Below, one piece after another: positions 6,346 through 49,652 of a stretch of DNA of 59,942 nucleotides. The notes under the pieces were generated by a model. That model was given only the letters and a program-made list of their open reading frames with translations. It had not been told where the DNA came from and did no database searches. The stretch is taken from contig JAGVQG010000056.1 in NCBI GenBank assembly GCA_020051845.1, positions 1 to 59,942 of the forward strand, given 5' to 3'. Both the position numbers and the translations under genes were made by a program. The stretch is from an archaeon. Lineage in GTDB: Archaea > Nanobdellota > Nanobdellia > Woesearchaeales > ARS49. How positions within the stretch are numbered: the first letter of the stretch is position 1; the number at the start of each line of letters is the position of its first letter.

Positions 6346-6430
6346 GCGAGGTGACACATGGCAAAGGATGAGGAATTCGACGAAGACTGGGATGAAGATA
6401 TAGAAGATATCTAAGGCCGTCTTCAAAAAA

Positions 6431-10742: not shown

Positions 10743-11085
10743 ACTGCCGTGGTTTTCCGGAATATCTCGGCATGTCGCAAAGATACGCGAGTTCTTCGCC
10801 TCCATCACGCCACAGAAGAAGGTGCACTTGTTTGTCGTGTACGACAACACCGTTGACAACCCATGGTTCTCCGTAATTTCGCCCTTCTCCCGGCCAGTTG
10901 TGGTGCAATAAATAGATGCGTCGCTCAAGGTCGTAATGATATCTCAATGCGCTCAGTTCCCGCACTGAATCGATCCGTTTCGAGCGGGTGCATTCAGTCA
11001 ACGCGGATAGCGCAAGCTTTTGTAGATATTCCAGGTCCAGTGAGCGATGACGCAGGTCGTATGGAAGGTCCCTTATGAAGTTCAT
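10699..11085 (-). CDS. hypothetical protein coupled to the phosphohexomutase gene
   Basis: 128 aa from ATG 11085, which overlaps the upstream stop (ATGA). No motif recognised. Confidence 0.45.
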   Translation of the reverse strand: MNFIRDLPYDLRHRSLDLEYLQKLALSALTECTRSKRIDSVRELSALRYHYDLERRIYLLHHNWPGEGRNYGEPWVVNGVVVHDKQVHLLLWRDGGEELAYLCDMPRYSGKPRQFRFSSLFPTSCKNA

Positions 11086-12401
11086 TCCTTGATCAGCCCG
11101 GTTATCTCTTTCAAGCGTCTCTCCAGTTCCTTCTTGTTCCTGGCTTCTACGTTGAGACGAAGCAAAGGTTCGGTGTTCGAGGGCCGCACATTGAACCACC
11201 AATCGGAGAACTCGACGCTGACGCCATCAAGTTCGGATATCTTTCCATCACGGTATTCGTTCTTGAGTTGCGCTATCTTCGCATCCTTGTCCTTGACCTC
11301 GAAGTTGATCTCGCCACTAGGATAATACTTCTTCAAAGGCTTGACCAATTCAGACAGCTTTCTGCCTGACGATGAGACCAGGCCCGCCATCAGCACAAGT
11401 GTGATGTCGCCGCTATCAGCGTAACTGTTGGACGCGTAATAGTAATGACCTGACAATTCACCCGCGAATATGGCGTTCGTCTGCCGCATCTTCTCCTTGA
11501 TGAAGCTGTGGCCGACGCGGGTCACGACGGCCTTGCCACCTAGCGCCGCGATCTGTTCCTTAACGGACCAGGATGAACGCAGGTCGTACAATATCGTCGA
11601 TTCGGGGTTCTTCTTCAGCAATTGCTCCGCGATGAGCGCGGTTATCAGATCAGCGGCTATCTGTTCGCCTTTCTCGTCTATGAAGAACACCCTATCGCAG
11701 TCAGCGTCGTAGGCGACGCCGAAATCCGCATTTGTGGAGAGCACTTTCTTCTTGAGGCTGTCAGTCGCCCCTTCGACCAATGGATTCGGCCCACGGCCGG
11801 GGAAGTTGCCGTCTGGTTCGAAATATAGCGGCACTATCTCTATGCCCGTGCTCTTCGCTATCTTTTCGATCGCGATGCTTGCGGCGCCGTTGCCAGCGTC
11901 AACGACGATCTTGATCTTGCCGATGCCGTGGGCGTATGCCGCGACATCTTCGACGAACTCATCCAATATGTCGACCTGGCGCACAGTGCCTTTCTTGGCC
12001 GATTGCTTGGGATTGCCAACCATCGACTTCTCGATGTCTTTGAGGCCGCTGTCTGATCCTATAGGTATGGCGCCTTTGCGGCACAACTTGAAGCCGTTGT
12101 ATTCCTTTGGCGTGTGGCTCGCCGTGATCATAGCAGCGTCTCCCTTGCGGCTGGCATAGTAGAGCATGTTGGTCGAGCAGACGCCGATGTCCTCGACATC
12201 ACAGCCTTGGTCGACCAGTCCTTGCACGAAGCGCGAATGCAATGCCGCGCTTGAGTTGCGCACGTCGCGTCCAACTATCAATTTCTTGGCCTTCAAGAAG
12301 ACCACGAGCGCTCTCGCAAGCGTGTAAGCGAAACCATCGTTCAATTCAGATGGATAGATGCCCCGTATATCGTATGCCTTGAATACTCCCAAAACATTCA
12401 C
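11082..12401 (-). CDS. glmM: phosphoglucosamine mutase / phosphomannomutase family (alpha-D-phosphohexomutase)
   Basis: Active-site loop TASHTPKEYNGFK and metal loop DADCDR. Confidence 0.88.
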   Translation of the reverse strand: MNVLGVFKAYDIRGIYPSELNDGFAYTLARALVVFLKAKKLIVGRDVRNSSAALHSRFVQGLVDQGCDVEDIGVCSTNMLYYASRKGDAAMITASHTPKEYNGFKLCRKGAIPIGSDSGLKDIEKSMVGNPKQSAKKGTVRQVDILDEFVEDVAAYAHGIGKIKIVVDAGNGAASIAIEKIAKSTGIEIVPLYFEPDGNFPGRGPNPLVEGATDSLKKKVLSTNADFGVAYDADCDRVFFIDEKGEQIAADLITALIAEQLLKKNPESTILYDLRSSWSVKEQIAALGGKAVVTRVGHSFIKEKMRQTNAIFAGELSGHYYYASNSYADSGDITLVLMAGLVSSSGRKLSELVKPLKKYYPSGEINFEVKDKDAKIAQLKNEYRDGKISELDGVSVEFSDWWFNVRPSNTEPLLRLNVEARNKKELERRLKEITGLIKE

Positions 12402-12502
12402 CTCTGAAGTGGCATCCTGCGAGCTTGATTAAAAACATTATGGTCCGGATGCCCTGCCATGCGATTGAGAACTTCGACTTGCCGCCGTGGCCTTTCCGAT
12501 TT

Positions 12503-12688
12503 TCACTTACGGAGTTTCGGCATCTCGAGGACCGGGTCTGGCAGGCCGTATTTTCGCGCCCGCGCTTGCTCGAGACTCACGAGTCGCCTGCAGTCGACGC
12601 ACCATTTGCGCATAGGACTGAGGCTTGACACTGCGCAGCCGCATCGCTGGCACAGCACCTGCATGATTTCATCCATGCTATTCTTCAT
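12503..12688 (-). CDS. small zinc-ribbon protein (61 aa)
   Basis: CQRCGC...CVDCRR provides two CxxC pairs. GAGGAAG lies upstream of the ATG. Confidence 0.45.
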   Translation of the reverse strand: MKNSMDEIMQVLCQRCGCAVSSLSPMRKWCVDCRRLVSLEQARARKYGLPDPVLEMPKLRK

Positions 12689-12805
12689 AACCCACCGTCT
12701 TCCTCACGTATTCCTAGAGGAGGTCTTCGGTTTATATTGATTTCTCTTGTAGCGACTTGAGAGTAGTCAAACTATTCTTATAAATGGAGTAAGGATAGTG
12801 CCGAT

Positions 12806-12970
12806 ATGCGAGACGCGCAGAAGAACACGGCCGAATCCTACGCTCGCGAGATGAAGAGACGCGATCAGCGCATAGAGGAACTCGAGGAGGAACTGCGGAT
12901 GATGCGCAAGTTGTTGCTCAAATCTGTGGGTGAGAAGCTCTCCATCACCGACAGGATGAAGAGACGCTAA
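12806..12970 (+). CDS. 54-aa coiled-coil micro-protein (hypothetical)
   Basis: Translated by hand: MRDAQKNTAESYAREMKRRDQRIEELEEELRMMRKLLLKSVGEKLSITDRMKRR. GGAGTAAGG lies upstream. Confidence 0.35.
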   Translation: MRDAQKNTAESYAREMKRRDQRIEELEEELRMMRKLLLKSVGEKLSITDRMKRR

Positions 12971-13677
12971 CCCCACTGTTCTTTCTTGATGCTCGCGGCA
13001 GGGATTTCGCAGAAAAGCAGCGTCTCCTCGACGCCTTTCACGAACGGTTCTGGTCCGCAGACATAATATACCGCGTTCTTGAGGTTGCGGACATGCCTCT
13101 TGATGGTCTCCTCGCCGATCCTGCCGCGGTGTCCTTGCCAGCCACTGTCCTCGGGTTCACGCGTGAGAGTCTGGATATAACAATGATCCGCGAACTTCTG
13201 GCTGCGATGGGTCAACTCATCCTTGTGCAATATGTCGAGCTGCGTGCGCACGGAATAAATCAGCGTCACGCGGGTCTTCATTCCAGAGTCCTGGATGTGA
13301 CGCAGCATGCTCATCATGGGCGCTATTCCTGTGCCGCCAGCAAGCAGCACGACGTCTGCCGGGACGGGCTCCTGCAATACGAAATTGCCATAGGGACCTT
13401 GCACGATGATCTCATCGCCTTCCTCTTTCTTGAAAAGCTCGGTCGTGAACACGCCGACCTTCTGTATCGTGAGCTCTATCGCGTCATCCATCAAAGGACT
13501 GCTCGATATGGAGTATGATCTCGGCCCGCATTTCGGGTTCTCGATGGTGAGTGTGACGAACTGGCCTGGCTTGAACACGATCTTCTCGGGCGTCTTCGGC
13601 TTCAGAGTGAACGCCTTGACGACGGTGTTGTGTCTTTCGATGGACTGGATGATGAATGGCCTTTTCTGGATGTTCAT
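12967..13677 (-). CDS. FNR-family flavoprotein oxidoreductase (FAD/NAD(P)-binding, no Fe-S domain)
   Basis: RSYSISS (RxYS FAD motif) and LLAGGTGIAPM (NAD(P) motif). Coupled to bcp by a 4-nt overlap. Confidence 0.8.
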   Translation of the reverse strand: MNIQKRPFIIQSIERHNTVVKAFTLKPKTPEKIVFKPGQFVTLTIENPKCGPRSYSISSSPLMDDAIELTIQKVGVFTTELFKKEEGDEIIVQGPYGNFVLQEPVPADVVLLAGGTGIAPMMSMLRHIQDSGMKTRVTLIYSVRTQLDILHKDELTHRSQKFADHCYIQTLTREPEDSGWQGHRGRIGEETIKRHVRNLKNAVYYVCGPEPFVKGVEETLLFCEIPAASIKKEQWG

Positions 13678-14147
13678 GTCCTTTCCCCCACGGCCGATAG
13701 CGCCTCTGATGCGTGCCCTTCTGGCACGACCTGCTGGAATATCTTCATTATGTTCCCATCCTCATCGATGATGAATGTCGAGCGGGCCATGCCGAACGAT
13801 GTCTTGCCATCGACCGTGCGCTTGCCCCAGACACCATATAGAGACGCGACCTCATGGTTCTGGTCGGATAGGAGCTTGAATTTCAATGAATGTTTTTGCG
13901 CGAAGCCCGCATGGCTTTCTGCGCTGTCCGGACTCACACCGACAACCATTATCTTGCGTTTCTCGTATTCTTCGCTGCTATCACGGAACGAGCACGCCTG
14001 GGCAGTGCAACCCGGAGTGTCATCCTTCGGGTAGAAGTAAAGCACGACTCGCTGCCCGCGCAATGATGAAAGAGAGATGTCGTTGCCTTTCGCGTCAGAT
14101 AGCTTGAAATCAGGCGCAACATCACCTTCTTTTAGCGTGATTGACAT
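13674..14147 (-). CDS. bcp: peroxiredoxin, Bcp/PrxQ type
   Basis: YFYPKDDTPGCTAQAC peroxidatic/resolving Cys motif. Confidence 0.9.
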   Translation of the reverse strand: MSITLKEGDVAPDFKLSDAKGNDISLSSLRGQRVVLYFYPKDDTPGCTAQACSFRDSSEEYEKRKIMVVGVSPDSAESHAGFAQKHSLKFKLLSDQNHEVASLYGVWGKRTVDGKTSFGMARSTFIIDEDGNIMKIFQQVVPEGHASEALSAVGERT

Positions 14148-14262
14148 AACAGGATGCCTTTTCTTGACGTATAAATGTCTTGCGCACCACAGCCATCAAC
14201 TCAAACTCGTTTGAGGGAATCTATAAAAGAATCTGGTGCCTACTAATGGTCGGGTGAAGACA

Positions 14263-15099
14263 ATGGAACAAGACGACTTCAACAAAACAGATTACATAAA
14301 ACATGAACTCCTTGGTGTTTTCCTTGACGGATTGATCGCGGAATCCATGGCGCAGCGACGCGAGCTTGTGATCATCGAATCACACGCAGGAAAAGGCAAA
14401 CGATACGCTCTGCCGATGGCATCTGTAGTGAATGCGAATTCAGGACACCGTGCTTACAATGACGACACACCCCTGCTGGCCGCGAGGAAGCTGGAGGCTG
14501 CGCGGAAACAGGGCTTGAGATATCAACTCAATCTGCATGAAGGCAAATTGAAGTGCAGGAAGGATCTCAAGACGTTCATGGACAACTACGCCGGACTGCA
14601 TGCTGCCGAGCAAGCCATACAGGTCAAGGACACCCTATTCGAAGAAGCATTGCTGGACTACCAGCTTCGCCGGTCCAATACCGACCATAACTTCGCGATA
14701 TTCATGGATCCTTCGGAAGAAGTCGCCCTGGGATATTACGACGAGAGTATGGTCAAGGGAATACAACATTGGTTGAAGAACGGCCGCGCCGATGTGATGT
14801 TGTACATGACCCAACTGACGCGCAGGGCACCCTATGTGGCACAGCATGACAAAAAATTGGATGCACTACATGATTCCATCGGCCAAAGGGCTGTGGACTT
14901 CTTCCACAAAATGCGCGGCGGAGCCATGGAATCACTAGACCATTTCATAATAACTGTCGACGACAAAGTAGTCGAGAACAGGCTGATCGACACACACATA
15001 CACGCTTTCGGGCAGTTGTTCCCGGGAAAAGTATACGCGGCCAACACGAACAGGACAACGATGGCGACGTCTGCTGGCGGTTATATGCTCATCCCTTGA
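14263..15099 (+). CDS. RlmJ/DUF519-like protein with degenerate catalytic motif
   Basis: TDYIKHELL...VIIESHAGKGKRYAL parallels RlmJ ADVLKH...DTHAGAGRYQL. The expected DPPY position reads MDPSEE. Confidence 0.4.
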   Translation: MEQDDFNKTDYIKHELLGVFLDGLIAESMAQRRELVIIESHAGKGKRYALPMASVVNANSGHRAYNDDTPLLAARKLEAARKQGLRYQLNLHEGKLKCRKDLKTFMDNYAGLHAAEQAIQVKDTLFEEALLDYQLRRSNTDHNFAIFMDPSEEVALGYYDESMVKGIQHWLKNGRADVMLYMTQLTRRAPYVAQHDKKLDALHDSIGQRAVDFFHKMRGGAMESLDHFIITVDDKVVENRLIDTHIHAFGQLFPGKVYAANTNRTTMATSAGGYMLIP

Positions 15100-15117
15100 G
15101 CACGGGCAGTGCGTAAA

Positions 15118-15127
15118 ATCTATATAC
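15118..15127 (+). promoter_or_regulatory. TATA box for sod
   Basis: ATCTATATAC lies about 30 nt upstream of the GTG 15150 / ATG 15159 start, implying a leaderless or near-leaderless mRNA. Confidence 0.4.
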
Positions 15128-15158
15128 GCCGGCTGCGTAAACGGTATCGGTGATACCG

Positions 15159-15761
15159 ATGCCTTACACTTTGAAACCTTTCACATACGCGAAGGATTCC
15201 CTCGAACCGTTCATGGACAGTCGCACTGTCGAGATCCATCATGACAAGCATCATCAGACCTACGTCGACAAGCTCAACGCCGCTGTCGAGAAGCATCCTG
15301 AGCTGTTCAAGAAGTCGCCCGAGGAACTGCTCAAGGATTTGAACGCTGTGCCTGATGACATTCGCGTCGCTGTCAAGAACATGGGAGGCGGTGTCGTCAA
15401 CCACGACTTTTTCTGGTCGATACTAAAGAAGGACGTCAAACCTTCAGGCCTGGTCATCGAAGCCATAAACAAGCAATGGGGTTCGCTCGACGCTTTCAAG
15501 AAAGCCTTCGGTGATGCAGCTGCAGGCGTTTTCGGCAGCGGCTGGACCTGGCTCGTGTCCAACAATGGCAAGCTGGAGATCATGACGACGTCGAACCAGG
15601 ACAGCCCGTTATCTGTCGGCAAGGTCCCGCTTTTGACGATAGATGTCTGGGAGCACGCGTATTATCTGAAGTACATGAACAAGAGGGTCGATTTCATAAG
15701 TGCGTTCTGGAATATCGTGGACTGGGAAAAGGTCGACGAACACTTCTCGAAGGCGAAATGA
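15159..15761 (+). CDS. sod: Fe/Mn superoxide dismutase
   Basis: HHDKHH, DVWEHAYYL. Confidence 0.93.
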   Translation: MPYTLKPFTYAKDSLEPFMDSRTVEIHHDKHHQTYVDKLNAAVEKHPELFKKSPEELLKDLNAVPDDIRVAVKNMGGGVVNHDFFWSILKKDVKPSGLVIEAINKQWGSLDAFKKAFGDAAAGVFGSGWTWLVSNNGKLEIMTTSNQDSPLSVGKVPLLTIDVWEHAYYLKYMNKRVDFISAFWNIVDWEKVDEHFSKAK

Positions 15762-16466
15762 TCAGATAAGCCGGAATTCCGACAATTCACCGTCGTTCTC
15801 TTTCATCATTGCGCTCTTGAGAGCGATTTTCTTCCCAAGTCTGTTCTTGATCAACCATAGGTCTGACGGCACGACGTTCTTTTCGTCGAGTCCGTCTATC
15901 TTGAACCATCGGGCAGGTCCGTCTTCCGATTTGATCGGTGCGCCTTTCGCGCTGACTGTGGTGAAGAACAGGATGAAGCTGTGCTTGATGATGCCATCGC
16001 CTTCGACACGCTCGTGCAGCACTGCGTTGATGGAGCCGAAAACCGGTTCAAGCCCTGTTTTGGTCTTGATGTGCCTGATGCTCGCGTCCTCGAAGCTTTC
16101 CTCAAGAAGCATCTTACCTCCGATGCAGGTCCAGTAGCCCTTGTACGGCCGTTTCCTGCGCCGGATCATCAGGATCCTGTCCTTGTCCACGCACGCGACG
16201 ATCACGACAGGCACAGGCCCTAATTGCTGGCCCGTGATATGCGAGAATATCGGGATGTAGCGTTCCGCGGTCTTGGTGAGATGGTAATTCTCGCCACGTT
16301 TCTCGAGCAAGCCGTCTTTCTGCATCATCGTGAGGTGATAGGCTAGCGCGTTCGACCTTATTCCCAGTGCCTTCTCGATGTCGCTGAACTTGAACTTGGT
16401 CCTGTCGAGGAACAACTCGAATATCTGCTCGCGTTCCTTTTTGACAAGGCTGCCCGTGTATCTCAT
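15762..16466 (-). CDS. winged-HTH (ArsR/MarR-like) fused to a Nudix-fold domain with a degenerate Nudix box
   Basis: N-terminal FSDIEKALGIRSNALAYHLTMMQKDGLLEK. The Nudix box reads G-x5-E-x7-R-H-I-x-T-K-x-G-L, so the REUxEE glutamates are replaced. It is the last gene of the suf operon, with a 4-nt overlap. Confidence 0.65.
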   Translation of the reverse strand: MRYTGSLVKKEREQIFELFLDRTKFKFSDIEKALGIRSNALAYHLTMMQKDGLLEKRGENYHLTKTAERYIPIFSHITGQQLGPVPVVIVACVDKDRILMIRRRKRPYKGYWTCIGGKMLLEESFEDASIRHIKTKTGLEPVFGSINAVLHERVEGDGIIKHSFILFFTTVSAKGAPIKSEDGPARWFKIDGLDEKNVVPSDLWLIKNRLGKKIALKSAMMKENDGELSEFRLI

Positions 16467-16861
16467 TTTTTCCCCTCATATTCGACTATCGCCATCTTGA
16501 GCACCTTGAATCCGAGCAGCGCGCACTTGAGCCGCATGCCTGATATGGGAACGCCTAACAAATCCAACACTTCCTGCTTGTCCATCGCAATGACATCCGC
16601 GACCTTATTGCCTATGATGTTCTCGGTAAGCATGCTTGTCGCTGCTATCGATATCGCGCATCCTTTGCCGTCGAACTTGACATCTTTGATTATGTCTTTC
16701 TTGACAAGAAGCGTGATGCCGACCTCATCACCGCATGCCGTGTTGACGTCATGCGCATGGCCGTTCGCATTCTTGACGACACCACTGTTCTTGGGATTCC
16801 TGAAGTGGTCGAGGATTATCTCCTGGTACATCTGCTCGTTTGGGAACGTTTTGTTATTCAT
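16463..16861 (-). CDS. sufU: SufU/IscU-type Fe-S cluster scaffold / sulfur acceptor
   Basis: LDHFRNPKN, ACGDEV and GKGCAIS conserved Cys motifs. ATG 16861 overlaps the sufS stop. Confidence 0.88.
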   Translation of the reverse strand: MNNKTFPNEQMYQEIILDHFRNPKNSGVVKNANGHAHDVNTACGDEVGITLLVKKDIIKDVKFDGKGCAISIAATSMLTENIIGNKVADVIAMDKQEVLDLLGVPISGMRLKCALLGFKVLKMAIVEYEGKK

Positions 16862-38200: not shown

Positions 38201-41200
38201 TCAACTATACGCATAGATGAAGCTCTCCGGATTCTCGTTCTGGTATGATCCTGCCGAGTCCGCACAGATGAATGCATAGCTCTTCTCGCCGTTGGTGTCG
38301 AGCTGCGTCTCACAATGGCTGTCTGTGCAGGTCATGCCCGAGGGTAGTTTGTCGAATGATTGTATGGCCGGTCCGTACTTGCAGATGTAATTTGAAGGCG
38401 TGTTCACGGTGAATTTCGTCGATGCCTTGGTCGCGGGATAGGTTATCGTCTGCGTCATCATGAACGGGCTTACCGTGAAATTGATATCCTCTCCCGGCGA
38501 CAACACGCCTCCTGTGGCTTCCGGCTGTCCTGTCGTGGTTATCTTGAGCAATCCGTGATAGAACGCGAAAGGCCTGTCGCGGCACTTGACATAGACAGTA
38601 TGTGGTCCGCTCACTCCTGTCTCCGTTTCGCACTGTCTTGTCCCGACTCCGCGCATGTCGCATTTCATCGCAGTCATCTCATCGAATGTCTTGTCGTTGT
38701 CCAGCGAGAAGGCGCATTCCGCGGGCTCGCTGAGCAATAGCTTCAACGAAGAAGGCATCGCAGCGGGTGGAGCGGGAGTGACGTTCAAGACACGCACGGG
38801 TATGTTGTCCTGTCGTATCGCTACTTCTATGACTATCTGTTTGGTCGTCGTGCCTTCCTCATCTTCGTCGCACGAGAGATAGAGGCGCAGTTCTGTCGGA
38901 ACCTTACGCAGTGCGTTGAATGTCAACAAAAGATCGACCTTGTTTCCAAGCGTGTTGAACTGCTTGTTCTCTTTGAGCGCGGAACTCAGCGGCTCTCCCC
39001 ACGCATCCTTTGCTTTCTGCAGGTTGACCTGTGCTCGAGGATCCGTTGTCGCGAAACTGAATACGCTATCGAACAGGCTCTTTGTCTCGAATGGATTCGC
39101 GAAGTACGATGCTGCCTTCGAACCCGTGGTCATTGAATTGAACTGACTGGTGTCAGGCACTTCGAAAAGGAGGTCCTGCGATTTCGCGGGTTCGCGCAAG
39201 TCGGGGTTGAACGCGTTGCTTCCTGGAGAGAATGATTCCATCATATAGTCGAAGAATATCTTCGCTCCACCAAGAGCGGACTCTGTTTCTGGATCGTCGG
39301 ATTCTAGCGAGCCTGTGAAACCAGGTATCATGCTCAGCATGCACGTCGCTTCCGAATCAGTCTTCACCGATATGTTGAGCATCTCCCAAGGATTGAGCGG
39401 TTCGACCACACGATATCCTGAGGATGTTGCCTGCACGTTCCTGCCTGGGAACTCGATGGTGATATCAAGTTGTGTGTCGGTGCCTTTCACCACGCATTTC
39501 GGGAAGCCATTGTCATTGGAGAAGACGCATTTGCGTCCTAGCGACTTACAGAGATATTCCGAACATCCGCCTAGCGCGTCTGCGCACATCTCACAACGTT
39601 GCTTCTTGAGCCGCACTGGTGCCTTGTATAACTTGCAATGCGTACTGTGGCGGATCCATAGCGGCACCATGTCCATCAAGACAGCGATAGGATCCTGCGA
39701 TAGCCACCAGTTGATGTATTCCCGTGTCCGATCCTTCATGTAATCAGGATCTCCCTGTGGATAGTTGAAATTGTCTGCCTTGACTCCCTGGAATGCAGGT
39801 ATGTTGAGAGGGACTTTCGGCGCCTTTATGATCTCGTCAAGAGTTGTGGTCATGTATGATTTGGATGGCTTGCCTGTACTGCTCTTGAATCGCTTGTTCG
39901 GTCCGAACTCAGCCATGTTGACCTTGTTTCCACAGTCGCCGAGCGAGTAGCACCATTGCGCCATGGCATTTGCGTGGGCCACTGGCGGCTTCCAGCTGAG
40001 TGCCTGCGAGAACACACCTATGTCCTCGTGCATCTGTTCGTTGCCGACCTGGCATACCAGCTTGCCTGAGGCGGTCCAGTGCTGCAAGCCAGGTCCTACT
40101 ATTGGATTGCATCGGTCGCTGTTGCGCCCAGCAACCTCTGTTGGTGGCGGTGGGACGAATCCTGGCCGCCAGAAGCAGTCGCGCACTGTCGTGTTCTCGC
40201 ACTGCCCAACACTTGCCTGGCTCCAGCAATCCTGCCAGCGGTTGTCGCGGCAACCGGCGACTTCACCATCTTCGACGCAGAACTCCTCCCTGTAGTCCCT
40301 GCATGGCTCCTCGATTATCTCGCCGTCGATGCATGAAAGTTTCACGAAACGGCTTCCCACAAGATCAAGCCCGTTCTTGCGATGGTAACTGTCGCCGCAC
40401 CATTGTTTTCCGTGCGGTAGTATCGTGCCTTCAAGATCGCAGCTCTTGCATGCTTTGCCGTTGCATTTCGTTTCATTGACGAAAGGCGGAACGCAGCGGC
40501 TGTCATTGGCCTCCACGACAATGCCTTTCTTCGAGGTGCATAATGATGCTGGCGCGTTGAAGTAGCAGTCGAAGCCATCATTGCAGTTCTGCAGGTATGT
40601 GACAGGCCTGCGCGGCTCGAGCGGCTTGTCAGCTGTCGACAACCCGCTCTGCGCAACGCGGAAAAAATATTGGCGTCCGACATTGTCCGTGGTGTTGAGC
40701 TCTATGACCGTGTTAGGATATGGCCTGTCGATGTTTATCTTTATGCCTGCGCCGTGCTGTTTCATCCAACTATCCTTGTCCATGTACCCGTTCTGGATCT
40801 CCTGGTTCAAGAGTAAAAGCGCAAGTGAGTGTAGCTTGCCTATCGGAGACTGTGTGCGCTGCGCAAGCTGGTCGAAGCTTATGGTGTCCTGGCCGCGCTT
40901 GAGTTTGATCGGTATCGTCAGTTCGCTCGTGACATCATCGAAGCCTATGATGCTGCTGATCGCGAGCGTTCCTCTGCTCACGACAGTGAATCCCTTCTTC
41001 TCAAGGGGCGCAAGATCGATGCAACCATCCACCAAAGGCGTGATGAGCGTGTCGAATTCCTCGGCGATGTCACGCTTTGTTCGCAGTAGGTTGATGCACC
41101 CTTTCCCATCGACTTCCTGGCAGTATACGCTGTAGGGTTGACCACGATGCACTATGAAAGGCTCCTTCAGCGTACCTCCTTTCTCCGATAGCTTGCGCAG

Positions 41201-41407
41201 GTAAGGTATACTTTGCGAACGGTAACATTCGGTGACTATTCCCTGGAGCTGCGTCGACGGGTCCTCGTTGCGCGCAGTGTCCTCGACAATGGTGTTGGTC
41301 TTCTCGCCACGACCCACCACATAGACAACGGTCCCTACTCCTATGATAAGTATGAGACCTATGATTATGAAAATGGCTATCTGACCTCTTTTGTTCCCCA
41401 TATCCAA
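38201..41407 (-). CDS. large (1068 aa) Cys-rich extracellular protein with a class III (pilin-like) signal-peptide-like N-terminus
   Basis: N-terminus MDMGNKRGQIAIFIIIGLILIIGVG. About 26 Cys counted by eye in the central third. No catalytic motif recognised. Confidence 0.75.
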   Translation of the reverse strand: MDMGNKRGQIAIFIIIGLILIIGVGTVVYVVGRGEKTNTIVEDTARNEDPSTQLQGIVTECYRSQSIPYLRKLSEKGGTLKEPFIVHRGQPYSVYCQEVDGKGCINLLRTKRDIAEEFDTLITPLVDGCIDLAPLEKKGFTVVSRGTLAISSIIGFDDVTSELTIPIKLKRGQDTISFDQLAQRTQSPIGKLHSLALLLLNQEIQNGYMDKDSWMKQHGAGIKINIDRPYPNTVIELNTTDNVGRQYFFRVAQSGLSTADKPLEPRRPVTYLQNCNDGFDCYFNAPASLCTSKKGIVVEANDSRCVPPFVNETKCNGKACKSCDLEGTILPHGKQWCGDSYHRKNGLDLVGSRFVKLSCIDGEIIEEPCRDYREEFCVEDGEVAGCRDNRWQDCWSQASVGQCENTTVRDCFWRPGFVPPPPTEVAGRNSDRCNPIVGPGLQHWTASGKLVCQVGNEQMHEDIGVFSQALSWKPPVAHANAMAQWCYSLGDCGNKVNMAEFGPNKRFKSSTGKPSKSYMTTTLDEIIKAPKVPLNIPAFQGVKADNFNYPQGDPDYMKDRTREYINWWLSQDPIAVLMDMVPLWIRHSTHCKLYKAPVRLKKQRCEMCADALGGCSEYLCKSLGRKCVFSNDNGFPKCVVKGTDTQLDITIEFPGRNVQATSSGYRVVEPLNPWEMLNISVKTDSEATCMLSMIPGFTGSLESDDPETESALGGAKIFFDYMMESFSPGSNAFNPDLREPAKSQDLLFEVPDTSQFNSMTTGSKAASYFANPFETKSLFDSVFSFATTDPRAQVNLQKAKDAWGEPLSSALKENKQFNTLGNKVDLLLTFNALRKVPTELRLYLSCDEDEEGTTTKQIVIEVAIRQDNIPVRVLNVTPAPPAAMPSSLKLLLSEPAECAFSLDNDKTFDEMTAMKCDMRGVGTRQCETETGVSGPHTVYVKCRDRPFAFYHGLLKITTTGQPEATGGVLSPGEDINFTVSPFMMTQTITYPATKASTKFTVNTPSNYICKYGPAIQSFDKLPSGMTCTDSHCETQLDTNGEKSYAFICADSAGSYQNENPESFIYAYS

Positions 41408-41555
41408 GGCTTTCGGGTGCCGGCTGCTTTATAAATGTATGGCATCGCGCCAGAACTCCTTGACGAGAACGACAACGCTATTTGTTGTCACTACGAAGAG
41501 GCAAAAAGAAGAAAGATTTATATAGTAATGTTGCGTATCATGACCTTGAGTGAAG

Positions 41556-42806
41556 ATGGCACAAACACCCGCGCCCTTGAAGAAAGAGCCATATTATACG
41601 ATTCTTGCGTTCGAGAAGCTCGAGCTACAAAAACCGCTCGAGATGATCACGAGCACGATATTATCTGAAAAAGCAGGCGCTCAATCATATGAAGTCTGGC
41701 GCCAGAACCCGCTCAGCATAATGCCAAACGTCCTGGCGTGGGCGTCGATGACCTGCTACGGTGGTTTTCGCAACAGGGTCAGCCCGAAGTTCGAGGAGCA
41801 CTTCGACCTTGACTTCTCATTCTATCCACGCACGCAAAAAAGGATGGAGAATGGCAGCATCCTAGAACAACACCTGTTCGAGAGATGCTCAAAGGATCCT
41901 GACGCTGCGCGAACAAAGGACATAGTGATACAGCTCCGTGAGCGCGACGACCACATGAAATATGATGCGACAAGATTCACGCACGACATCCAAGACCTTC
42001 TGCCCGACGCACTAAAAGATGTGAAACAGAATCTCGGCTTCGCGCCTTATGTTCCAGGAACTATCGATGCTTTCACGCACGCGTTCAGGAACGAGAATTT
42101 TGATGTGGCCACTGCCAAGACCTGTGAGAAAGGGTTGTTCCGACGTGGCATCGATATCGTGGCTGTCAACCTCCTCTACAATAGAGGTTTCATAGAAACA
42201 CTCTGCGACACTAGACGCGGAAACAAAGGCGAACTGACCTATCAAGGGATCAAGGACGCCAAGTGGGTGTTGTTCTTCCCAGAGGACATGTACGAACGCG
42301 ACCTGAAGACGATAGACGGCGTGAAAGGGGATTATGCGCAGCTAGACCCGATACAGAAGATGATCGCGATGAATGTCGCATTGCCAATCATTGCATTCAA
42401 GACGAAGACAGGCTTGTTCACGCCAGTAGGGGCACAAGACAAGAAAGGATCGAGGATCGTTCCCCGATCAAGCGAGACCCAAGTGCTTAGGAAGATATAC
42501 ACCCGCATACCTTCGGTGGCTTTCGACTCCGCGATTCTGATCGACAAGCACATTATTGAGAAGAACAGGACCCATCCTTGGACGATAAATGAATACGAAC
42601 GCCAGAAGACTGAGGTTGATCCTGAGGAGAAGATACCGACAGGACCTCAAGAAACAATTGAAGTCAAGCACGACAATCGTCCGACCGAATTGGAAAGCCC
42701 TCCTGTTGTGCTTCCTGTGAACCCACCCGCTCTTCCCAAACTGCCGAAGTTCTCCGTCAGAGGTCCAAGAAAGACGGCACATCTCCCGTTCGAGGATATC
42801 AAATGA
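41556..42806 (+). CDS. hypothetical protein (416 aa) with Pro-rich C-terminus
   Basis: ATG 41556 is about 32 nt downstream of TATA-like TTTATATAG. The stop overlaps the next gene (ATGA). Confidence 0.6.
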   Translation: MAQTPAPLKKEPYYTILAFEKLELQKPLEMITSTILSEKAGAQSYEVWRQNPLSIMPNVLAWASMTCYGGFRNRVSPKFEEHFDLDFSFYPRTQKRMENGSILEQHLFERCSKDPDAARTKDIVIQLRERDDHMKYDATRFTHDIQDLLPDALKDVKQNLGFAPYVPGTIDAFTHAFRNENFDVATAKTCEKGLFRRGIDIVAVNLLYNRGFIETLCDTRRGNKGELTYQGIKDAKWVLFFPEDMYERDLKTIDGVKGDYAQLDPIQKMIAMNVALPIIAFKTKTGLFTPVGAQDKKGSRIVPRSSETQVLRKIYTRIPSVAFDSAILIDKHIIEKNRTHPWTINEYERQKTEVDPEEKIPTGPQETIEVKHDNRPTELESPPVVLPVNPPALPKLPKFSVRGPRKTAHLPFEDIK

Positions 42807-43708
42807 ACCAAGCCACGATCTCATTGGGGAAGAAAGCCCTATTTTGCGTCAACGCGACGCTCCTCACTGCCGCAGGCTACCTCTGGTACAATCACGCCGA
42901 CGCGCACAAACCAATCAGGATCACTCCGCATATCGCACAAGAACATCAAGCACCCGATCCCAGGACCGACAACTTGCCCGCTGCGACGCAAATCACGACC
43001 GCGCCCGATACGCTTGAAGTCCTCGTGCAGAAACCCGCGACTGTCGATCCGCGTGTCACGACCCTCACGCTCAAAGGTTTCGACGAGTACAACGCACTCG
43101 TTCCGGCCATGCTCAAGGTCTCCGACGAACTTAAATCGAATAGGATCGATGTGCCATCCGAGATCATCGCGCTCACTGTGCTTACAGAGACTTCAGGAAA
43201 GACCGGTCGCGACGGAAAATACCGCGACCGCTACGAGCCGGGATTCCAGAGGAGATATGTCGATCCCCTGTTCGACAAGTGGGACAAGAAAGCAAATGGC
43301 TACGGACTCCACATGGTCCTTGAGAAGATATACAAGAGGATGCAGGAGCAAGGAAGCGAAATCAGCAAAGACGCGTTCAAGGCCATGCTCGCGTCGTCCC
43401 CAGGACCCGCGCAGGTGATTAGACTGACGGCATATGACGATGGTTTCCGAGGTTTGCCGAACGAGCTTGACGACAATGAAGTCAACCTCCGCTGCGCCGC
43501 AATGCACATCTGGAGACAAAGGCACCAGACATCCACGGTTGTCGACAATGATGAAGGACAGCATCGAGTCTACGACCCCCGACTAGTCCTCAGGGCATAC
43601 AACGCAGGCAATGTGGACGCCAAGCCGACAGAAGGCCACGTCGAGCGTGGCATGGATTACTGGACACAGTTGCAGAAGAACACCCTTGCGAATTCCCGTC
43701 GTAGATGA
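42803..43708 (+). CDS. membrane-anchored lysozyme-like / lytic-transglycosylase-like protein
   Basis: N-terminal TM (ALFCVNATLLTAAGYLWY). LTETSG (Glu-Ser-type motif), SSPGPAQV and VLRAYNAGN resemble SLT motifs I-III. RYEPGFQRRY resembles the muramidase FE.H.F element. Confidence 0.45.
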   Translation: MNQATISLGKKALFCVNATLLTAAGYLWYNHADAHKPIRITPHIAQEHQAPDPRTDNLPAATQITTAPDTLEVLVQKPATVDPRVTTLTLKGFDEYNALVPAMLKVSDELKSNRIDVPSEIIALTVLTETSGKTGRDGKYRDRYEPGFQRRYVDPLFDKWDKKANGYGLHMVLEKIYKRMQEQGSEISKDAFKAMLASSPGPAQVIRLTAYDDGFRGLPNELDDNEVNLRCAAMHIWRQRHQTSTVVDNDEGQHRVYDPRLVLRAYNAGNVDAKPTEGHVERGMDYWTQLQKNTLANSRRR

Positions 43709-43804: not shown

Positions 43805-44335
43805 ATGGGGGTTATCGTGAGAACAACTCTGTTCATCATCATCGCCTTCGCTTTTGGCATCGCCATCGGCGGAGTACTCCACGGAATGACCGTGGTCGAT
43901 GTTGCTGCAGCACCTTCTCCACAGCAACCCGCAAGCGTATCCACACTCGCGTTCACGTCCACTACGGACATGGCCGCGCCCAGCGACCATATCCCTGAGA
44001 GCGCCATCAGCGTCCTCTCGGACAAGGTCGTCATAGACCTGCCCGGCGCTGTCTGGGCGAAATTCACGCCTTCGGGTTCGATGAAACCGGTGTTCGACAC
44101 CGGCGCGAACGCAATCGAGGTCGTGCCTTCGTCCCCTGGACAGATCAACGTCGGCGACATCGTGTCGTACCAGAGCGACTGGATGGACACGCCGGTCATC
44201 CACCGCGTGATTCAGACAGGCACCGACTCGGAAGGATGGTACGCCGTGATGAAGGGCGACAACAACAGCACGCAGGATCCTGGCAAGGTCAGGTTCCCGC
44301 AGGTGCGTCGCGTCGTCGTCGCGGTCATTTACTGA
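43805..44335 (+). CDS. signal peptidase I, archaeal/eukaryotic Sec11 type
   Basis: N-terminal TM, SGSMKP (catalytic Ser), HRV, and the GDNN motif. Confidence 0.85.
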   Translation: MGVIVRTTLFIIIAFAFGIAIGGVLHGMTVVDVAAAPSPQQPASVSTLAFTSTTDMAAPSDHIPESAISVLSDKVVIDLPGAVWAKFTPSGSMKPVFDTGANAIEVVPSSPGQINVGDIVSYQSDWMDTPVIHRVIQTGTDSEGWYAVMKGDNNSTQDPGKVRFPQVRRVVVAVIY

Positions 44336-48581: not shown

Positions 48582-49652
48582 ATGGAATTCGTAGTGCAGA
48601 ACGCAATGCGAAGTAACAGCCGGCAGGACGACGACATGATGGTCGGTCAGGCCAACATCAAGGTCATCGGAGTCGGCGGTGGCGGTAACAACATGGTTAG
48701 CTGGCTCTACAAGAAGGGAATCAAGGGAGCCGAAGTCATCGCTGTCAACACTGACAAACAGCACCTGGACATTTCTGAATCTGATAAGAAGTTCCTAATC
48801 GGTCGCGACGTGACTCGCGGTCTCGGTTGCGGCGGTTTCCCACAGAAGGGAGCTGAAGCAGCACAGGAATCATTGATGGCGCTCAAGGAGACCTTGCGCG
48901 GTTCTGACATGGTCTTCGTGTGCGCAGGTATGGGCGGAGGCACAGGTACTGGCGCCGCGCCGGTTGTGGCAAGTGTGGCAAAGGAGATGGGTGCGATAGT
49001 CATCGGCACCGTCACCATGCCATTCAACATCGAACGCGCACGTTGCGACAAGGCCGAATACGGCCTGCAGCAATTGCGCCAGCAGAGCGACACAGTGGTC
49101 GTCATCGACAACAACCGCCTAGTGCAGATCGCAGGCAACCTGCCGGTCCAACAGGCGTTCGCTGTCGCCAACGAGCTCGTGTCGACGATGATCAAGGGAA
49201 TAGTCGAGACAATCGCCGTCCCCTCGCTCGTCAACCTCGACTACGCTGACGTCAAGGCGATCATGACCAACGGTGGCGTCGCAGCCATCGGTATCGGTTC
49301 GTCCGACACCAACAACCGCGTAGATGAAGCTGTCCGTGGCGCTCTCGCCAACCCCTTGCTCGAAGTGAGCTACAACGGAGCCACAGGCGCGCTTATCCAC
49401 GTCGAAGGCGGTCCTGACATGACTTTGGACGAGATCAACCGTGTCGGTGAACTCGTGACAGAGTCGATGGACGCTGACGCCAACGTCATCTGGGGCGCAC
49501 GTGTCTCGGAAGAGATGAAGGGCAAGCTGATGGTCATGACCATCATCACAGGCGTACAGAGCCCGTGGTTGCTCGGCAAAGGCGACAACCGCCAGAAGGT
49601 CCAGCAGTCCCGCAAGGTCATGAACGACGACCTCGGCATCGAGACGCTGTAA
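48582..49652 (+). CDS. ftsZ: cell division GTPase FtsZ (paralog B)
   Basis: GVGGGGNN, GMGGGTGTG and NLDYADVK. Confidence 0.95.
   Translation: MEFVVQNAMRSNSRQDDDMMVGQANIKVIGVGGGGNNMVSWLYKKGIKGAEVIAVNTDKQHLDISESDKKFLIGRDVTRGLGCGGFPQKGAEAAQESLMALKETLRGSDMVFVCAGMGGGTGTGAAPVVASVAKEMGAIVIGTVTMPFNIERARCDKAEYGLQQLRQQSDTVVVIDNNRLVQIAGNLPVQQAFAVANELVSTMIKGIVETIAVPSLVNLDYADVKAIMTNGGVAAIGIGSSDTNNRVDEAVRGALANPLLEVSYNGATGALIHVEGGPDMTLDEINRVGELVTESMDADANVIWGARVSEEMKGKLMVMTIITGVQSPWLLGKGDNRQKVQQSRKVMNDDLGIETL

What the first reader, a model, noticed from the sequence alone, without database searches (positions are those of the whole stretch)
38201..41407. 1068-aa cysteine-rich envelope protein with a pilin-type (class III) signal-peptide-like N-terminus
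This is the largest gene in the window. Its N-terminus is MDMGNKRGQIAIFIIIGLILIIGVG: a short charged head ending K-R-G, then Q and about 20 hydrophobic residues. Archaeal prepilin/preflagellin peptidases recognise that pattern, and it is not a standard Sec or lipoprotein signal. The central third carries about 26 Cys by my eye count in closely spaced C-x-C and CxxC-like patterns, which suggests a disulfide-rich or metal-binding extracellular module. I recognise no catalytic or known adhesin motif. A protein of about 118 kDa using a pilin-like anchor would be an unusual surface structure, possibly an adhesin presented on or as part of a filament.
Basis: partly seen in the sequence, partly recalled or inferred. 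Interest (0 to 1): 0.65.

Follow-up and report, generated by a model that had tools for sequence, protein, structure and literature searches.

The report
Pilin-signal, cysteine-rich archaeal surface protein
This gene encodes a large, disulfide-rich surface protein of a tiny symbiotic-type (DPANN) archaeon that starts with a pilin-style export signal; it is a single-chain fusion of three proteins that related genomes encode side by side with four small pilin-like genes, which points to an undescribed attachment apparatus.

Summary
The ORF is real: window 38201-41401, minus strand, 1066 aa from the ATG. It has one N-terminal hydrophobic helix and 40 Cys, 27 of them in aa 273-636. Pfam, NCBIfam, PDB sequence search and Foldseek find nothing significant.

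The family is very large. A profile search gives 10,875 cluster representatives, and there are 357 relatives in GTDB species genomes, where named by phylum Woesearchaeota/Nanoarchaeota, often several per MAG.

The N-terminus is conserved family-wide as K(-3) K/R(-2) G/A/S(-1) | Q(+1) ... F(+5) ... G(+9). This meets the sequence rules for archaeal class III (prepilin-type) signals and has the +1 Gln of EppA substrates. The globular part is not pilin-like: a disordered linker follows the helix and no pilin fold was found.

The main new result is that the protein fuses three modules in order: N-module, Cys-rich module 1, then Cys-rich module 2 with beta-sandwiches. In 26 fetched loci these are consecutive genes. 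In 12 of 21 loci with enough downstream sequence, four small genes follow; in the 15 operons examined these carry conserved class III-like N-termini.

Best reading: a single-chain version of a pilin-anchored, adhesin-like surface complex. Cleavage, the peptidase and any filament remain unshown.

The parts
41428..41435 (-). TTTATAAA box (archaeal TATA-like), 20 nt upstream of the TTG and 26 nt upstream of the ATG. It implies a leaderless or near-leaderless mRNA.
   Evidence: Sequence read directly. That the box functions as a promoter is inferred.
38201..41401 (-). Coding sequence, 1066 aa plus stop, from the ATG at 41401.
   Evidence: 100% match to P0001 (1066 aa). Homologues start MGQKRGQ.
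41384..41401 (-). Short charged leader MGNKRG (aa 1-6). The predicted class III cleavage site lies after Gly6.
   Evidence: Family logo: K at -3 68%, K/R at -2 92%, G/A/S at -1 96%. Cleavage not shown.
41306..41383 (-). Hydrophobic helix QIAIFIIIGLILIIGVGTVVYVVGRG (aa 7-32). It is the only membrane segment.
   Evidence: Q at +1 100% (required by the selection pattern), F at +5 84%, G at +9 88%. Hydropathy. AF2 helix 5-32.
41264..41305 (-). Variable polar linker (aa 33-46), predicted disordered.
   Evidence: pLDDT below 50 in both models. Variable length and sequence in alignments.
40616..41263 (-). Conserved alpha/beta N-domain (aa 47-262) with invariant C59 and C127 and a near-invariant GG at 75-76. 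Together with the signal it forms the 'N-module', which also exists as stand-alone proteins of about 255 aa.
   Evidence: AF2 pLDDT about 89-95. No PDB fold match with E<1e-3. Stand-alone and otherwise-fused copies.
39917..40600 (-). Cys-rich module 1 (aa 268-495): HG.QWC...GSR...C.DG...EPCRDYREEFC...CR.NRW.DC...RDCFW...C.P.V.PG..HW...LGDCGN.
   Evidence: Invariant Cys and motifs. Homologous to separate 'cys1' proteins with Sec-type signals, at 83-135 bits with the motifs aligned.
39647..39916 (-). Poorly conserved middle segment (aa 496-585). It falls at the position of the gene boundary in split operons, and of a hydrophobic insert in P0015/P0016-type relatives.
   Evidence: pLDDT 33-59. Its HMM matches only 24 of 74 relatives. 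P0015 and P0016 sequences.
39482..39646 (-). Cys-rich module 2 (aa 586-640): C..Y.AP....C..C......CSEYLCKSLGRKC.....G.P.C.
   Evidence: Invariant C589, C603/606, C613, C618, C625, C636. The motif C[ST]EYxCxSLG is present in 27 of 52 cys2-annotated proteins of the split-operon loci.
38702..39481 (-). Beta-sandwich region with a long helical insert (aa 641-900).
   Evidence: AF2 secondary structure. Its HMM matches the 'cys2+bsand' genes of split operons.
38204..38701 (-). C-terminal tandem Ig-like beta-sandwich domains (aa 901-1066), each with conserved Cys pairs.
   Evidence: AF2 strands. Only Ig/FN3-like Foldseek hits. Big_13 Pfam hits in 8 of 41 relatives.

Best explanation
The gene encodes a surface protein of about 117 kDa from a DPANN archaeon, inferred to be Woesearchaeota/Nanoarchaeota-like.

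Shown:
- It has a short K-R-G leader, an invariant Gln, one 26-residue hydrophobic helix, a flexible linker, a conserved alpha/beta N-domain, two Cys-rich modules (26 conserved Cys) and Ig-like beta-sandwiches.
- It is a co-linear fusion of three proteins that many related genomes encode as consecutive genes: the N-module with the same K-[KR]-[GAS]-Q signal, a cys1 protein with a Sec-type signal, and a cys2 plus beta-sandwich protein.
- Those three genes are usually followed by four small genes whose N-termini also look like class III signals.

Inferred mechanism:
1. The precursor is inserted by Sec.
2. A prepilin-type (A24 family, EppA/PibD-like) peptidase cuts after Gly6, leaving Gln7 at the new N-terminus.
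3. The retained hydrophobic helix keeps the protein in the membrane, or lets a type-IV-filament machinery assemble it together with the small pilin-like proteins into a short stalk or tip complex.
4. The disulfide-stabilised Cys-rich and Ig-like modules project outward and act as the binding (adhesin-like) end.

In the split systems the secreted Cys-rich subunits would be held at the surface by docking to the N-module. Here that contact is made covalent.
For: - Real, conserved gene: 14 full-length homologues in the word-index search. The profile search of 1.84e9 cluster representatives gave 10,875 hits, 1,366 of them at E<=1e-30. There are 357 relatives in GTDB species genomes; where the record names a phylum it is Woesearchaeota/Nanoarchaeota, and there are 2-3 paralogues in many MAGs.
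- Signal: logo from 137 members is K68%/R15% at -3, K/R 92% at -2, G53/A22/S21% at -1, Q 100% at +1 (fixed by the selection pattern; Q7 is also invariant in alignments A2 and A5), T/S 86% at +3, F 84% at +5, G 88% at +9, with a median leader of 6 aa.
- Published rules say that -2 (positive), -1 and +1 are the decisive positions for archaeal SPase III (PMC3387779). M. maripaludis EppA substrates read KGQV, KGQI, KGQL and RAQI and need Gln at +1 (PMC4371748).
- There is a single hydrophobic segment, no lipobox Cys and no twin-Arg.
- The N-module is reused. It occurs as stand-alone proteins of 240-275 aa and fused to other C-terminal parts.
- Fusion evidence: in L085, L089 and L090, and in 26 of 86 further loci, the genes N-module -> cys1 -> cys2+bsand lie in the same order as the target's domains. 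Eleven loci have N-module -> cys1+cys2 in one protein. The cys1 alignment keeps HGESWC, GSR, C.DFR.E.C, NKW.DC, RDCYW, PPGF.FW and LGDCG.
- In 12 of 21 evaluable loci four small same-strand genes follow. In the 15 operons examined their N-termini are conserved: KRGQ-MxLSFGMIFS, KKG-ALEISFGWLFAI, KKGQ-MKIQQMAFML and KKGQ-EEMVGFALII.
- Woesearchaeota MAGs are reported to carry flaI/flaJ/flaK homologues (PMC5994134; PMC11606122). Two loci with family members (L016, L064) carry the isolate labels MAG.221 and MAG.180, names that also appear in the latter paper.
- Large Ig-rich adhesin-like proteins and SPIII proteins with extra domains are described next to archaeal type-IV-filament loci (bioRxiv 10.64898/2026.04.22.720090).
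Against: - No A24 peptidase, secretion ATPase or platform gene is present in the 60-kb window (Pfam on about 55 ORFs). Motif scans of about 1.9 Mb around homologues and operons also found none.
- Pfam PF04021 (Class_IIIsignal) scores E=4. The only other N-terminal hit of this kind is sub-threshold Tad/TadE-like, E 0.05-0.1. NCBIfam finds nothing.
- Position +5 is Phe, not the Glu typical of EppA substrates.
- The AF2 model shows the hydrophobic helix separated from the globular domain by a disordered linker. Foldseek finds no pilin among the hits for the N-domain; the best E is 3.7e-3, and all TM-scores normalised to the query are 0.17 or lower (target-normalised up to 0.36 on short alignments). 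A classical helical-filament subunit is therefore unlikely.
- The four small pilin-like genes are not next to the target in this window.
- An adhesive function is inferred only from architecture.
Confidence: 0.6

Rival explanations
1. The protein is an ordinary type II (N-in, C-out) membrane protein. On this reading the N-terminal segment is an uncleaved signal-anchor, K-R simply obeys the positive-inside rule, and the protein has nothing to do with prepilin peptidases or type IV filaments.
For: - There is one N-terminal hydrophobic helix followed by a flexible linker.
- No peptidase or pilus genes lie nearby.
- Pfam and NCBIfam class III/pilin models do not match.
- No pilin fold was found.
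Against: A plain anchor does not explain three things:
- the near-invariant small residue at -1 and the invariant Gln at +1, together with F at +5 and G at +9, in proteins that are otherwise 20-30% identical;
- the same motif on stand-alone N-modules and on unrelated C-terminal architectures;
- the conserved operon partnership with four small proteins that have K-[GA]-Q/A pilin-like N-termini.
Confidence: 0.2
2. The protein is a structural cell-envelope (S-layer-like or sheath) component rather than an adhesin. On this reading the Cys-rich and Ig modules form a lattice or scaffold around the cell, tethered by the N-terminal helix.
For: - It is a large, acidic (pI 5.4), Ig-rich extracellular protein with 7 N-glycosylation sequons.
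- The split operon in L085 is followed by a gene matching the S-layer family PF05124.
- Neighbours of homologues include envelope genes: AglB-like, Lgt-like, GT2 and an ABC-2 exporter.
Against: - The target and 41 relatives show no S-layer family match.
- There are several divergent paralogues per genome, which suits variable binding proteins better than a single lattice protein.
- A separate S-layer-like gene exists beside the operon.
Confidence: 0.12
3. The Cys-rich core binds metals or Fe-S-type cofactors and has a redox or enzymatic role outside the cell, rather than being a disulfide-stabilised scaffold.
For: - There are 27 Cys in about 365 residues, including two CxxC motifs.
- SufBCDS, SOD and peroxiredoxin genes are in the same window.
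Against: - Cys spacing is mostly 5-22 residues and is spread through beta-rich modules, with no ferredoxin, rubredoxin, zinc-ribbon or haem (CxxCH) pattern.
- The location is extracellular, behind a signal.
- No cofactor-binding Pfam family matches.
- Conserved Trp, Pro and Gly around the Cys residues are typical of disulfide knots.
- The Suf genes are 17 kb away and are housekeeping genes.
Confidence: 0.05

Closest known systems
EppA-dependent class III signal proteins of Methanococcus maripaludis (Epd pilins; DUF361 / Pfam PF04021 'QxSxExxxL')
   Same: - Short basic leader ending K/R-G/A, then Gln at +1, Ser/Thr at +3, and about 20 hydrophobic residues. Compare KGQI, KGQV and RAQI with RGQI here.
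- The Epd-type system 1 is reported in DPANN.
   Different: - Position +5 is Phe, not Glu, and +9 is Gly, not Leu. The PF04021 model does not match (E=4).
- The protein is 1066 aa, with a linker and non-pilin domains.
- No epd-type genes lie nearby.
Bindosome-type substrate-binding proteins of Sulfolobales (class III signal on a large non-pilin surface protein; PibD substrates)
   Same: - A class III signal and a retained hydrophobic helix tether a large globular extracellular protein.
- The genes lie away from the pilus machinery.
   Different: - There is no solute-binding domain and no cognate ABC importer in the window.
- The cargo here is a Cys-rich/Ig module of unknown fold.
- The +1 residue is Gln.
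Modular type IV pilins (e.g. Streptococcus sanguinis PilB/PilC: pilin module fused to a functional module)
   Same: - A conserved N-terminal module with a class III signal is fused to variable functional modules.
- The same N-module occurs alone and with different C-terminal parts.
   Different: - The N-domain shows no detectable pilin fold and is separated from the helix by a disordered linker.
- The lineage is archaeal, and there is no sequence relationship.
Bacterial minor-pilin/PilY1 tip complex (FimU-PilVWX plus the large Sec-exported adhesin PilY1) and the four minor pseudopilins of T2SS
   Same: In the split operons four small class III-like proteins sit beside large Sec-signal proteins. 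The target fuses these large proteins to a fifth class III protein. The logic matches 'four minor pilins prime and present a large adhesin'.
   Different: - The resemblance is one of organisation only. There is no sequence or fold homology to PilY1 or minor pilins.
- No machinery genes are adjacent.
- Function is untested.
Large Ig-rich adhesin-like proteins encoded in archaeal type-IV-filament loci (e.g. arCOG05616, arCOG07037; bioRxiv 10.64898/2026.04.22.720090)
   Same: Large extracellular proteins with multiple Ig-like domains, linked to pilin-like genes.
   Different: - Those proteins sit inside loci with the ATPase and platform genes.
- This family has its own class III signal, a novel N-domain and a 26-Cys core, and it is not in such a locus.

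Membership tests
Archaeal class III (prepilin-type, SPase III) signal-peptide proteins | Positively charged residue at -2 | tested here: met
   Arg5 in the target. K or R in 92% of 137 family members. Rule from PMC3387779.
Archaeal class III (prepilin-type, SPase III) signal-peptide proteins | Small residue (Gly/Ala, rarely Ser) at -1 | tested here: met
   Gly6 in the target. G 53%, A 22%, S 21% in the family.
Archaeal class III (prepilin-type, SPase III) signal-peptide proteins | Cleavage motif lies before, not after, a hydrophobic stretch of about 20 residues, and the leader is short | tested here: met
   The leader is 6 aa (family median 6). The hydrophobic helix spans aa 7-32. The target also fits my recollection of the FlaFind pattern [KRDE][GA][ALIFQMVED][ILMVTAS]x3; FlaFind itself was not run.
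Archaeal class III (prepilin-type, SPase III) signal-peptide proteins | Match to curated sequence models (Pfam PF04021 Class_IIIsignal; NCBIfam pilin N-terminal models) | tested here: not met
   PF04021 scores E=4 on one member only. Tad (PF13400) scores E 0.05-0.1, below threshold. NCBIfam finds nothing.
Archaeal class III (prepilin-type, SPase III) signal-peptide proteins | Actual cleavage by an A24-family prepilin peptidase encoded in the same genome | not testable with these tools
   No A24 peptidase is in the 60-kb window. The rest of the genome is not available. flaK homologues are reported in Woesearchaeota MAGs.
EppA-type substrates (DUF361, QxSxExxxL) | Gln at +1 | tested here: met
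   Gln7 in the target. Q is invariant in alignments A2 and A5; the 100% figure in the logo is fixed by the selection pattern. The EppA requirement is from PMC4371748.
EppA-type substrates (DUF361, QxSxExxxL) | Ser at +3, Glu at +5, Leu at +9 | tested here: not met
   +3 is T/S in 86% of members (Ala in the target). +5 is Phe (84%) and +9 is Gly (88%).
Type IV pilin (filament subunit) | Continuous N-terminal alpha-helix whose C-terminal half packs on a beta-sheet/Ig-like head domain | tested here: not met
   The AF2 model has helix 5-32, then a disordered stretch 33-46, then a separate alpha/beta domain. There are no pilin structures among the top 50 Foldseek PDB hits.
Type IV pilin (filament subunit) | Gene linked to secretion ATPase and platform genes, or to other pilin genes | tested here: inconclusive
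   Nothing of this kind is in the window or near homologues. However, the split form of the protein lies in an operon with four small pilin-like genes.
Bindosome-type SPIII substrate-binding proteins | Periplasmic solute-binding domain and adjacent ABC importer | tested here: not met
   No SBP Pfam domain was found. An ABC-2-type ATPase lies immediately downstream on the opposite strand in 9 of 74 homologue loci, but not in the window.
S-layer proteins | Match to S-layer families, or a C-terminal anchor (PGF-CTERM or TM) | tested here: not met
   No S-layer Pfam or NCBIfam match. There is no C-terminal hydrophobic segment.
PilY1-like tip adhesins | C-terminal beta-propeller/PilY1 domain homology | tested here: not met
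   No Pfam match and no significant Foldseek match.

The most novel reading that the evidence does not exclude
The target and the conserved operon together define a previously unrecognised, DPANN-specific surface organelle related to type IV filaments. The operon consists of the N-module, the cys1 protein, the cys2/Ig protein and four small proteins with class III-like signals. On this reading five pilin-like helices form a short pseudopilus or tip complex that presents disulfide-knotted adhesins. Woesearchaeota/Nanoarchaeota episymbionts would use it to attach to host cells, and the many fused paralogues, like the one in this window, would serve as interchangeable 'heads'.
Probability: 0.3. 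Interest if true: 0.85.

Novelty: new variant of a known kind. Interest (0 to 1): 0.66.

Why it matters
Woesearchaeota and related DPANN archaea are abundant, uncultivated and thought to live attached to other cells, but how they attach is unknown. This protein belongs to one of their largest unannotated surface-protein families, with thousands of cluster representatives and no Pfam or NCBIfam model.

The fused and split gene arrangements give a concrete, testable parts list: one class III-anchored module, two Cys-rich secreted modules and four pilin-like proteins. That list describes a candidate attachment apparatus.

It would also extend the known use of prepilin-type signals in archaea beyond pilins, archaellins and sugar-binding proteins, to very large disulfide-rich adhesin-like proteins. 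The family also offers three apparently new folds or domains for structural work.

Tried and rejected
**Searches that found nothing for the target**
- Pfam and NCBIfam on the full protein, on N-terminal peptides and on 41 relatives gave only Ig-like Big_13 hits in some relatives.
- PDB sequence and profile searches with the protein, A1 and A5 found nothing.
- Foldseek against PDB gave only generic Ig hits for the full model, and weak NTF2/cystatin-like and XLF hits for the N-domain, all with E>1e-3.
- Foldseek against viral models gave only tandem Ig/FN3 hits with very low TM-scores, so a viral glycoprotein or fusogen link was dropped.

**Looking for pilus machinery**
- Pfam on about 55 window ORFs found none.
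- Motif scans for A24 peptidases (G[GA][GA]D[VI]K-type) and PilB/FlaI Walker A over about 1.9 Mb of loci found none. These regexes are crude and could miss divergent genes.

**Gene neighbourhood of 74 fused homologues**
- Recurrent neighbours are an ABC-2 exporter, Lgt-like and AglB-like genes, RNase HII, GT2 and an unknown family of about 400 aa. They look like lineage synteny or general envelope context, not a dedicated system.
- The 418-aa and 301-aa neighbours in the window are conserved only in close relatives and have no family match.

**Other**
- Cluster look-up of window housekeeping proteins gave no taxon name.
- The Szabo 2007 FlaFind paper is not in the library, so the FlaFind pattern is quoted from memory.
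- Model coordinates are not exposed, so disulfide pairing could not be checked.


Full report
**1. Observation**

The ORF at 38201..41407 on the minus strand is present as described. It is the longest ORF in the window. The first in-frame start is a TTG. An ATG two codons downstream, at 41401, gives MGNKRGQ... (1066 aa). That is how the public collection calls the protein (P0001), and it is where the closest homologues begin (MGQKRGQ). A TTTATAAA box lies at 41428-41435, 20 nt upstream of the TTG, which fits an archaeal promoter and a near-leaderless mRNA.

The surrounding genes are archaeal housekeeping genes: TFB, eIF2-gamma, a proteasome subunit, FttA/aCPSF1, S3Ae, several aminoacyl-tRNA synthetases, two FtsZ genes, SufBCDS, SOD and a peroxiredoxin.

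The protein has 40 Cys, 27 of them between aa 273 and 636. That is about 7% in the core, against 1.14% in 35 other window genes. There are two CxxC motifs and no CxC. There is a single hydrophobic segment at the N-terminus, 7 N-x-S/T sequons, and the mature protein has a pI of 5.4.

**2. Family**

Pfam and NCBIfam give no hit. PDB sequence and profile searches also give none.

The word-index search found 14 full-length homologues at 23-75% identity. The exhaustive profile search of 1.84 billion cluster representatives found 10,875 proteins at E<=1e-3 and 1,366 at E<=1e-30. Most of the top 150 are 800-1350 aa and align end to end.

In GTDB species genomes 357 relatives were confirmed. Most of the best 80 come from MAGs named Woesearchaeota, Nanoarchaeota/Nanoarchaeia or Nanobdellota. 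The rest carry what looks like a placeholder label, 'uncultured Methanosarcinales'. Many MAGs hold 2-3 paralogues.

Alignments show at least 24 invariant Cys and the following conserved motifs:
- HGxxWC
- GSRH
- EPCRDYREExC
- CRxNRWxDC
- RDCxW
- CxPxVPPGxxxW
- GDCGN
- CxxWxAPxxxxCxxCxxxxxxC[ST]EYxCxSLGxxC

**3. The N-terminus**

I took 137 members whose N-terminus could be placed in register. The selection pattern required Gln at +1, so the 100% figure for Q is fixed by the method. Q7 is, however, also invariant in alignments A2 and A5, which did not impose it.

| Position | Residues |
|---|---|
| -3 | K 68% |
| -2 | K/R 92% |
| -1 | G 53%, A 22%, S 21% |
| +1 | Q 100% (by selection) |
| +2 | I/V/L |
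| +3 | T/S 86% |
| +5 | F 84% |
| +9 | G 88% |
| +21 | Y 55% |

The leader is mostly 3-8 residues, with a median of 6.

Reviews state that in archaeal SPase III substrates positions -2 (positive), -1 and +1 are decisive, and that Glu at +5 is often absent (PMC3387779). The EppA substrates of M. maripaludis read KGQV, KGQI, KGQL and RAQI, and EppA needs Gln at +1 (PMC4371748). The target's RGQI fits these rules. It also fits the FlaFind pattern as I recall it, but FlaFind itself could not be run.

Conservation of a small residue and a Gln at fixed positions, in proteins that are otherwise 20-30% identical, is hard to explain for a mere signal-anchor.

Three points count against formal membership. 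Pfam's Class_IIIsignal model does not match (E=4). The only other relevant hit is a sub-threshold Tad/TadE-like match (E 0.05-0.1). Position +5 is Phe rather than Glu.

In the window no other ORF has such an N-terminus.

**4. Structure**

The full-length AF2 model has a mean pLDDT of 69. The model of aa 1-265 has a mean pLDDT of 89. Together they give this layout:
- helix, aa 5-32
- disordered linker, aa 33-46
- confident alpha/beta domain, aa 47-255
- beta-rich Cys module, aa 270-490
- low-confidence stretch, aa 493-590
- small Cys knot, aa 589-640
- beta-sandwich with a long helical insert, aa 641-900
- two Ig-like domains at the C-terminus

Foldseek against PDB found nothing with E<1e-3 for either model. 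The full model gave only Ig-like hits. The N-domain gave weak NTF2/cystatin-like and XLF hits with TM-scores of 0.36 or lower on either normalisation, and no pilins. The viral library gave only tandem Ig/FN3 matches.

So the similarity to pilins is confined to the signal and the hydrophobic helix. The protein does not look like a canonical filament subunit.

**5. Modular nature and the fusion**

I built HMMs from segments of the target. The signal plus N-domain, which I call the N-module, also occurs in other architectures near family members: proteins of 336, 547, 580, 705 and 771 aa. A Laminin_G_3 protein in L001 carries the same signal.

A profile of the N-module retrieved many stand-alone proteins of 240-275 aa. 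Their gene contexts are highly informative. In L085 the following genes lie on one strand:

| Coordinates | Product |
|---|---|
| 5071-5835 | N-module |
| 5832-7406 | cys1 protein with a Sec-type signal |
| 7393-9999 | cys2 + beta-sandwich + C-terminal protein |
| 10001-10768 | second N-module |
| 10770-14150 | cys1+cys2+beta-sandwich protein |
| 14182-16529 | four small genes |

L089 and L090 repeat this arrangement.

A metagenome scan with stand-alone N-modules returned 80 more loci. Of the 86 loci analysed, many of them short:
- 26 show N-module -> cys1 -> cys2;
- 11 show N-module -> a single cys1+cys2 protein;
- in 12 of the 21 loci with enough downstream sequence, four small same-strand genes follow.

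The homology of the split cys1 proteins is genuine: 83-135 bits, with HGESWC, GSR, CxDFRxExC, NKWxDC, RDCYW, PPGFxFW and LGDCG aligned. The C[ST]EYxCxSLG motif is present in 27 of the 52 cys2-annotated proteins in these loci.

The gene order equals the domain order of the target. The poorly conserved aa 496-585 stretch falls at the position of the cys1/cys2 gene boundary. The target is therefore a 'Rosetta-stone' fusion. This implies that in the split systems the N-module and the two secreted Cys-rich proteins act together, probably as a complex.

**6. The four small genes**

Across 15 operons the products are about 150, 310, 175 and 165 aa. Their N-termini are strongly conserved:
- K-R-G-Q|M-x-L-S-F-G-M-I-F-S-I-I-L-I-I
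- K-K-G|A-L-E-I-S-F-G-W-L-F-A-I-I-V-G
- K-K-G-Q|M-K-I-Q-Q-M-A-F-M-L-I-A-V
- K-K-G-Q|E-E-M-V-G-F-A-L-I-I-I-I-V

Each has a short basic leader, a small residue, often Gln, sometimes an acidic residue, and then about 20 hydrophobic residues. That is the pilin or pseudopilin pattern. None matches Pfam or NCBIfam, so their pilin nature is also inferred from the motif only.

The organisation, four small class III-like proteins beside large Sec-exported proteins, resembles bacterial minor-pilin/PilY1 or T2SS minor-pseudopilin sets. There is no homology to those systems.

**7. Machinery**

No A24 peptidase, secretion ATPase or platform gene lies in the window, within 8-10 kb of 74 fused homologues, or near the operons. 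The motif scans were crude.

Published analyses report flaI, flaJ and flaK homologues in most Woesearchaeota MAGs (PMC5994134; PMC11606122). Loci L016 and L064, which carry family members, bear the isolate labels MAG.221 and MAG.180, names that also appear in the latter paper. A 2026 preprint places TFF systems 1 and 4A in DPANN. Pilin genes located away from the machinery are common in archaea.

Whether this particular genome has the peptidase cannot be tested from 60 kb.

**8. Interpretation**

Best-supported reading: this is a single-chain version of a conserved DPANN surface complex. Its membrane-proximal module carries a class III-type, EppA-like signal, and its distal disulfide-rich and Ig modules act as a binding or adhesive head.

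What is shown:
- the gene is real and belongs to a very large family;
- the signal motif is conserved;
- there is a single N-terminal hydrophobic helix;
- the protein is modular;
- the fusion/split relationship holds;
- the split form is partnered in an operon with small pilin-like genes.

What is inferred:
- cleavage after Gly6;
- involvement of a TFF machinery;
- assembly into a stalk or tip;
- adhesion.

Rival readings, in order of weight, are an uncleaved signal-anchor, a structural envelope component, and metal or redox chemistry. Each is set out with its evidence in the rival section.

**9. Comparison and novelty**

The closest known concepts are:
- EppA-type class III substrates (same signal logic);
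- bindosome sugar-binding proteins (class III signal on a large non-pilin protein);
- modular pilins such as S. sanguinis PilB;
- minor-pilin/PilY1 tip complexes;
- Ig-rich adhesin-like proteins of archaeal TFF loci.

The family fails the tests for 'pilin fold', 'curated class III model', 'S-layer' and 'SBP'. It should not be filed as a member of those families. It works like a class III-anchored surface protein.

I found no description of this family or operon in the searchable literature. I cannot exclude an arCOG entry or a paper outside the library.

I rate it a new variant of a known kind, of fairly high interest. The family is very large, unannotated, restricted to a lineage whose cell biology is largely unknown, and now has a testable parts list.

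Noticed in passing
L085:5071-16529 (also L089, L090, L111, L119, L121, L122, L134, L168 and others): A conserved operon, usually just downstream of PCNA and opposite a primase gene. Its order is N-module, cys1 protein, cys2/Ig protein, then four small genes (about 150, 310, 175 and 165 aa) with conserved class III-like N-termini. None of these has a Pfam or NCBIfam family.
   Followed up: partly
L007:6548-7318 and 16 other Woesearchaeota loci; L001:12554-16402: Clear homologues of bacterial prolipoprotein diacylglyceryl transferase (Lgt, PF01790, E=2e-41) occur in these archaeal MAGs. Next to one family member lie three paralogous proteins with lipobox-like signals (…LLFLVGC). This is relevant to the open question of how archaea make lipoproteins.
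   Followed up: no
P0015, P0016, P0165-P0177 (relatives; not in the window): A second architecture of the Cys-rich core. It has a Sec-type signal, no N-module, and a long Gly/Ala-rich hydrophobic insert between cys1 and cys2, at the position where the target has its disordered middle segment.
   Followed up: partly
L085:17274-19541: A 755-aa protein matching the S-layer family PF05124 (25.3 bits, above the cut-off) lies directly downstream of the operon. The region is therefore a cell-envelope gene cluster.
   Followed up: no
window 41550-43708 (+): Two genes of unknown function (418 aa and 301 aa) are transcribed divergently from the target. The 418-aa gene is conserved beside the target's orthologue in L084 and L005. 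Neither has a Pfam or NCBIfam match.
   Followed up: partly
window 43805-44335 (+): An archaeal type I signal peptidase lies 2.4 kb from the target's start. TIGR02228 scores 50.9 bits, just under its 51.85 cut-off. The proximity is probably coincidental.
   Followed up: no
window 6431-7477 (+) and 48582-49652 (+): Two FtsZ paralogues lie on the same 60-kb contig.
   Followed up: no
L090:10841-11500: A HEPN/nucleotidyltransferase toxin-antitoxin-like pair is inserted inside the operon, between the N-module gene and the cys1 gene.
   Followed up: no
P0097 (5994 aa; relative): A giant protein with 27 stretches matching profile positions 802-998. The beta-sandwich unit of this family can evidently be amplified into very long arrays.
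   Followed up: no
L026:1391-4322 and about 5 other loci: Paired multi-pass membrane proteins of about 490 aa lie upstream of family members on the opposite strand. One has a weak AglB-core-like match (E=5e-4). These may be glycosyltransferases for surface proteins.
   Followed up: no
P0160: A 1468-aa family member is labelled 'candidate division KSB1 bacterium' in NCBI. This is probably a mis-binned DPANN contig.
   Followed up: no
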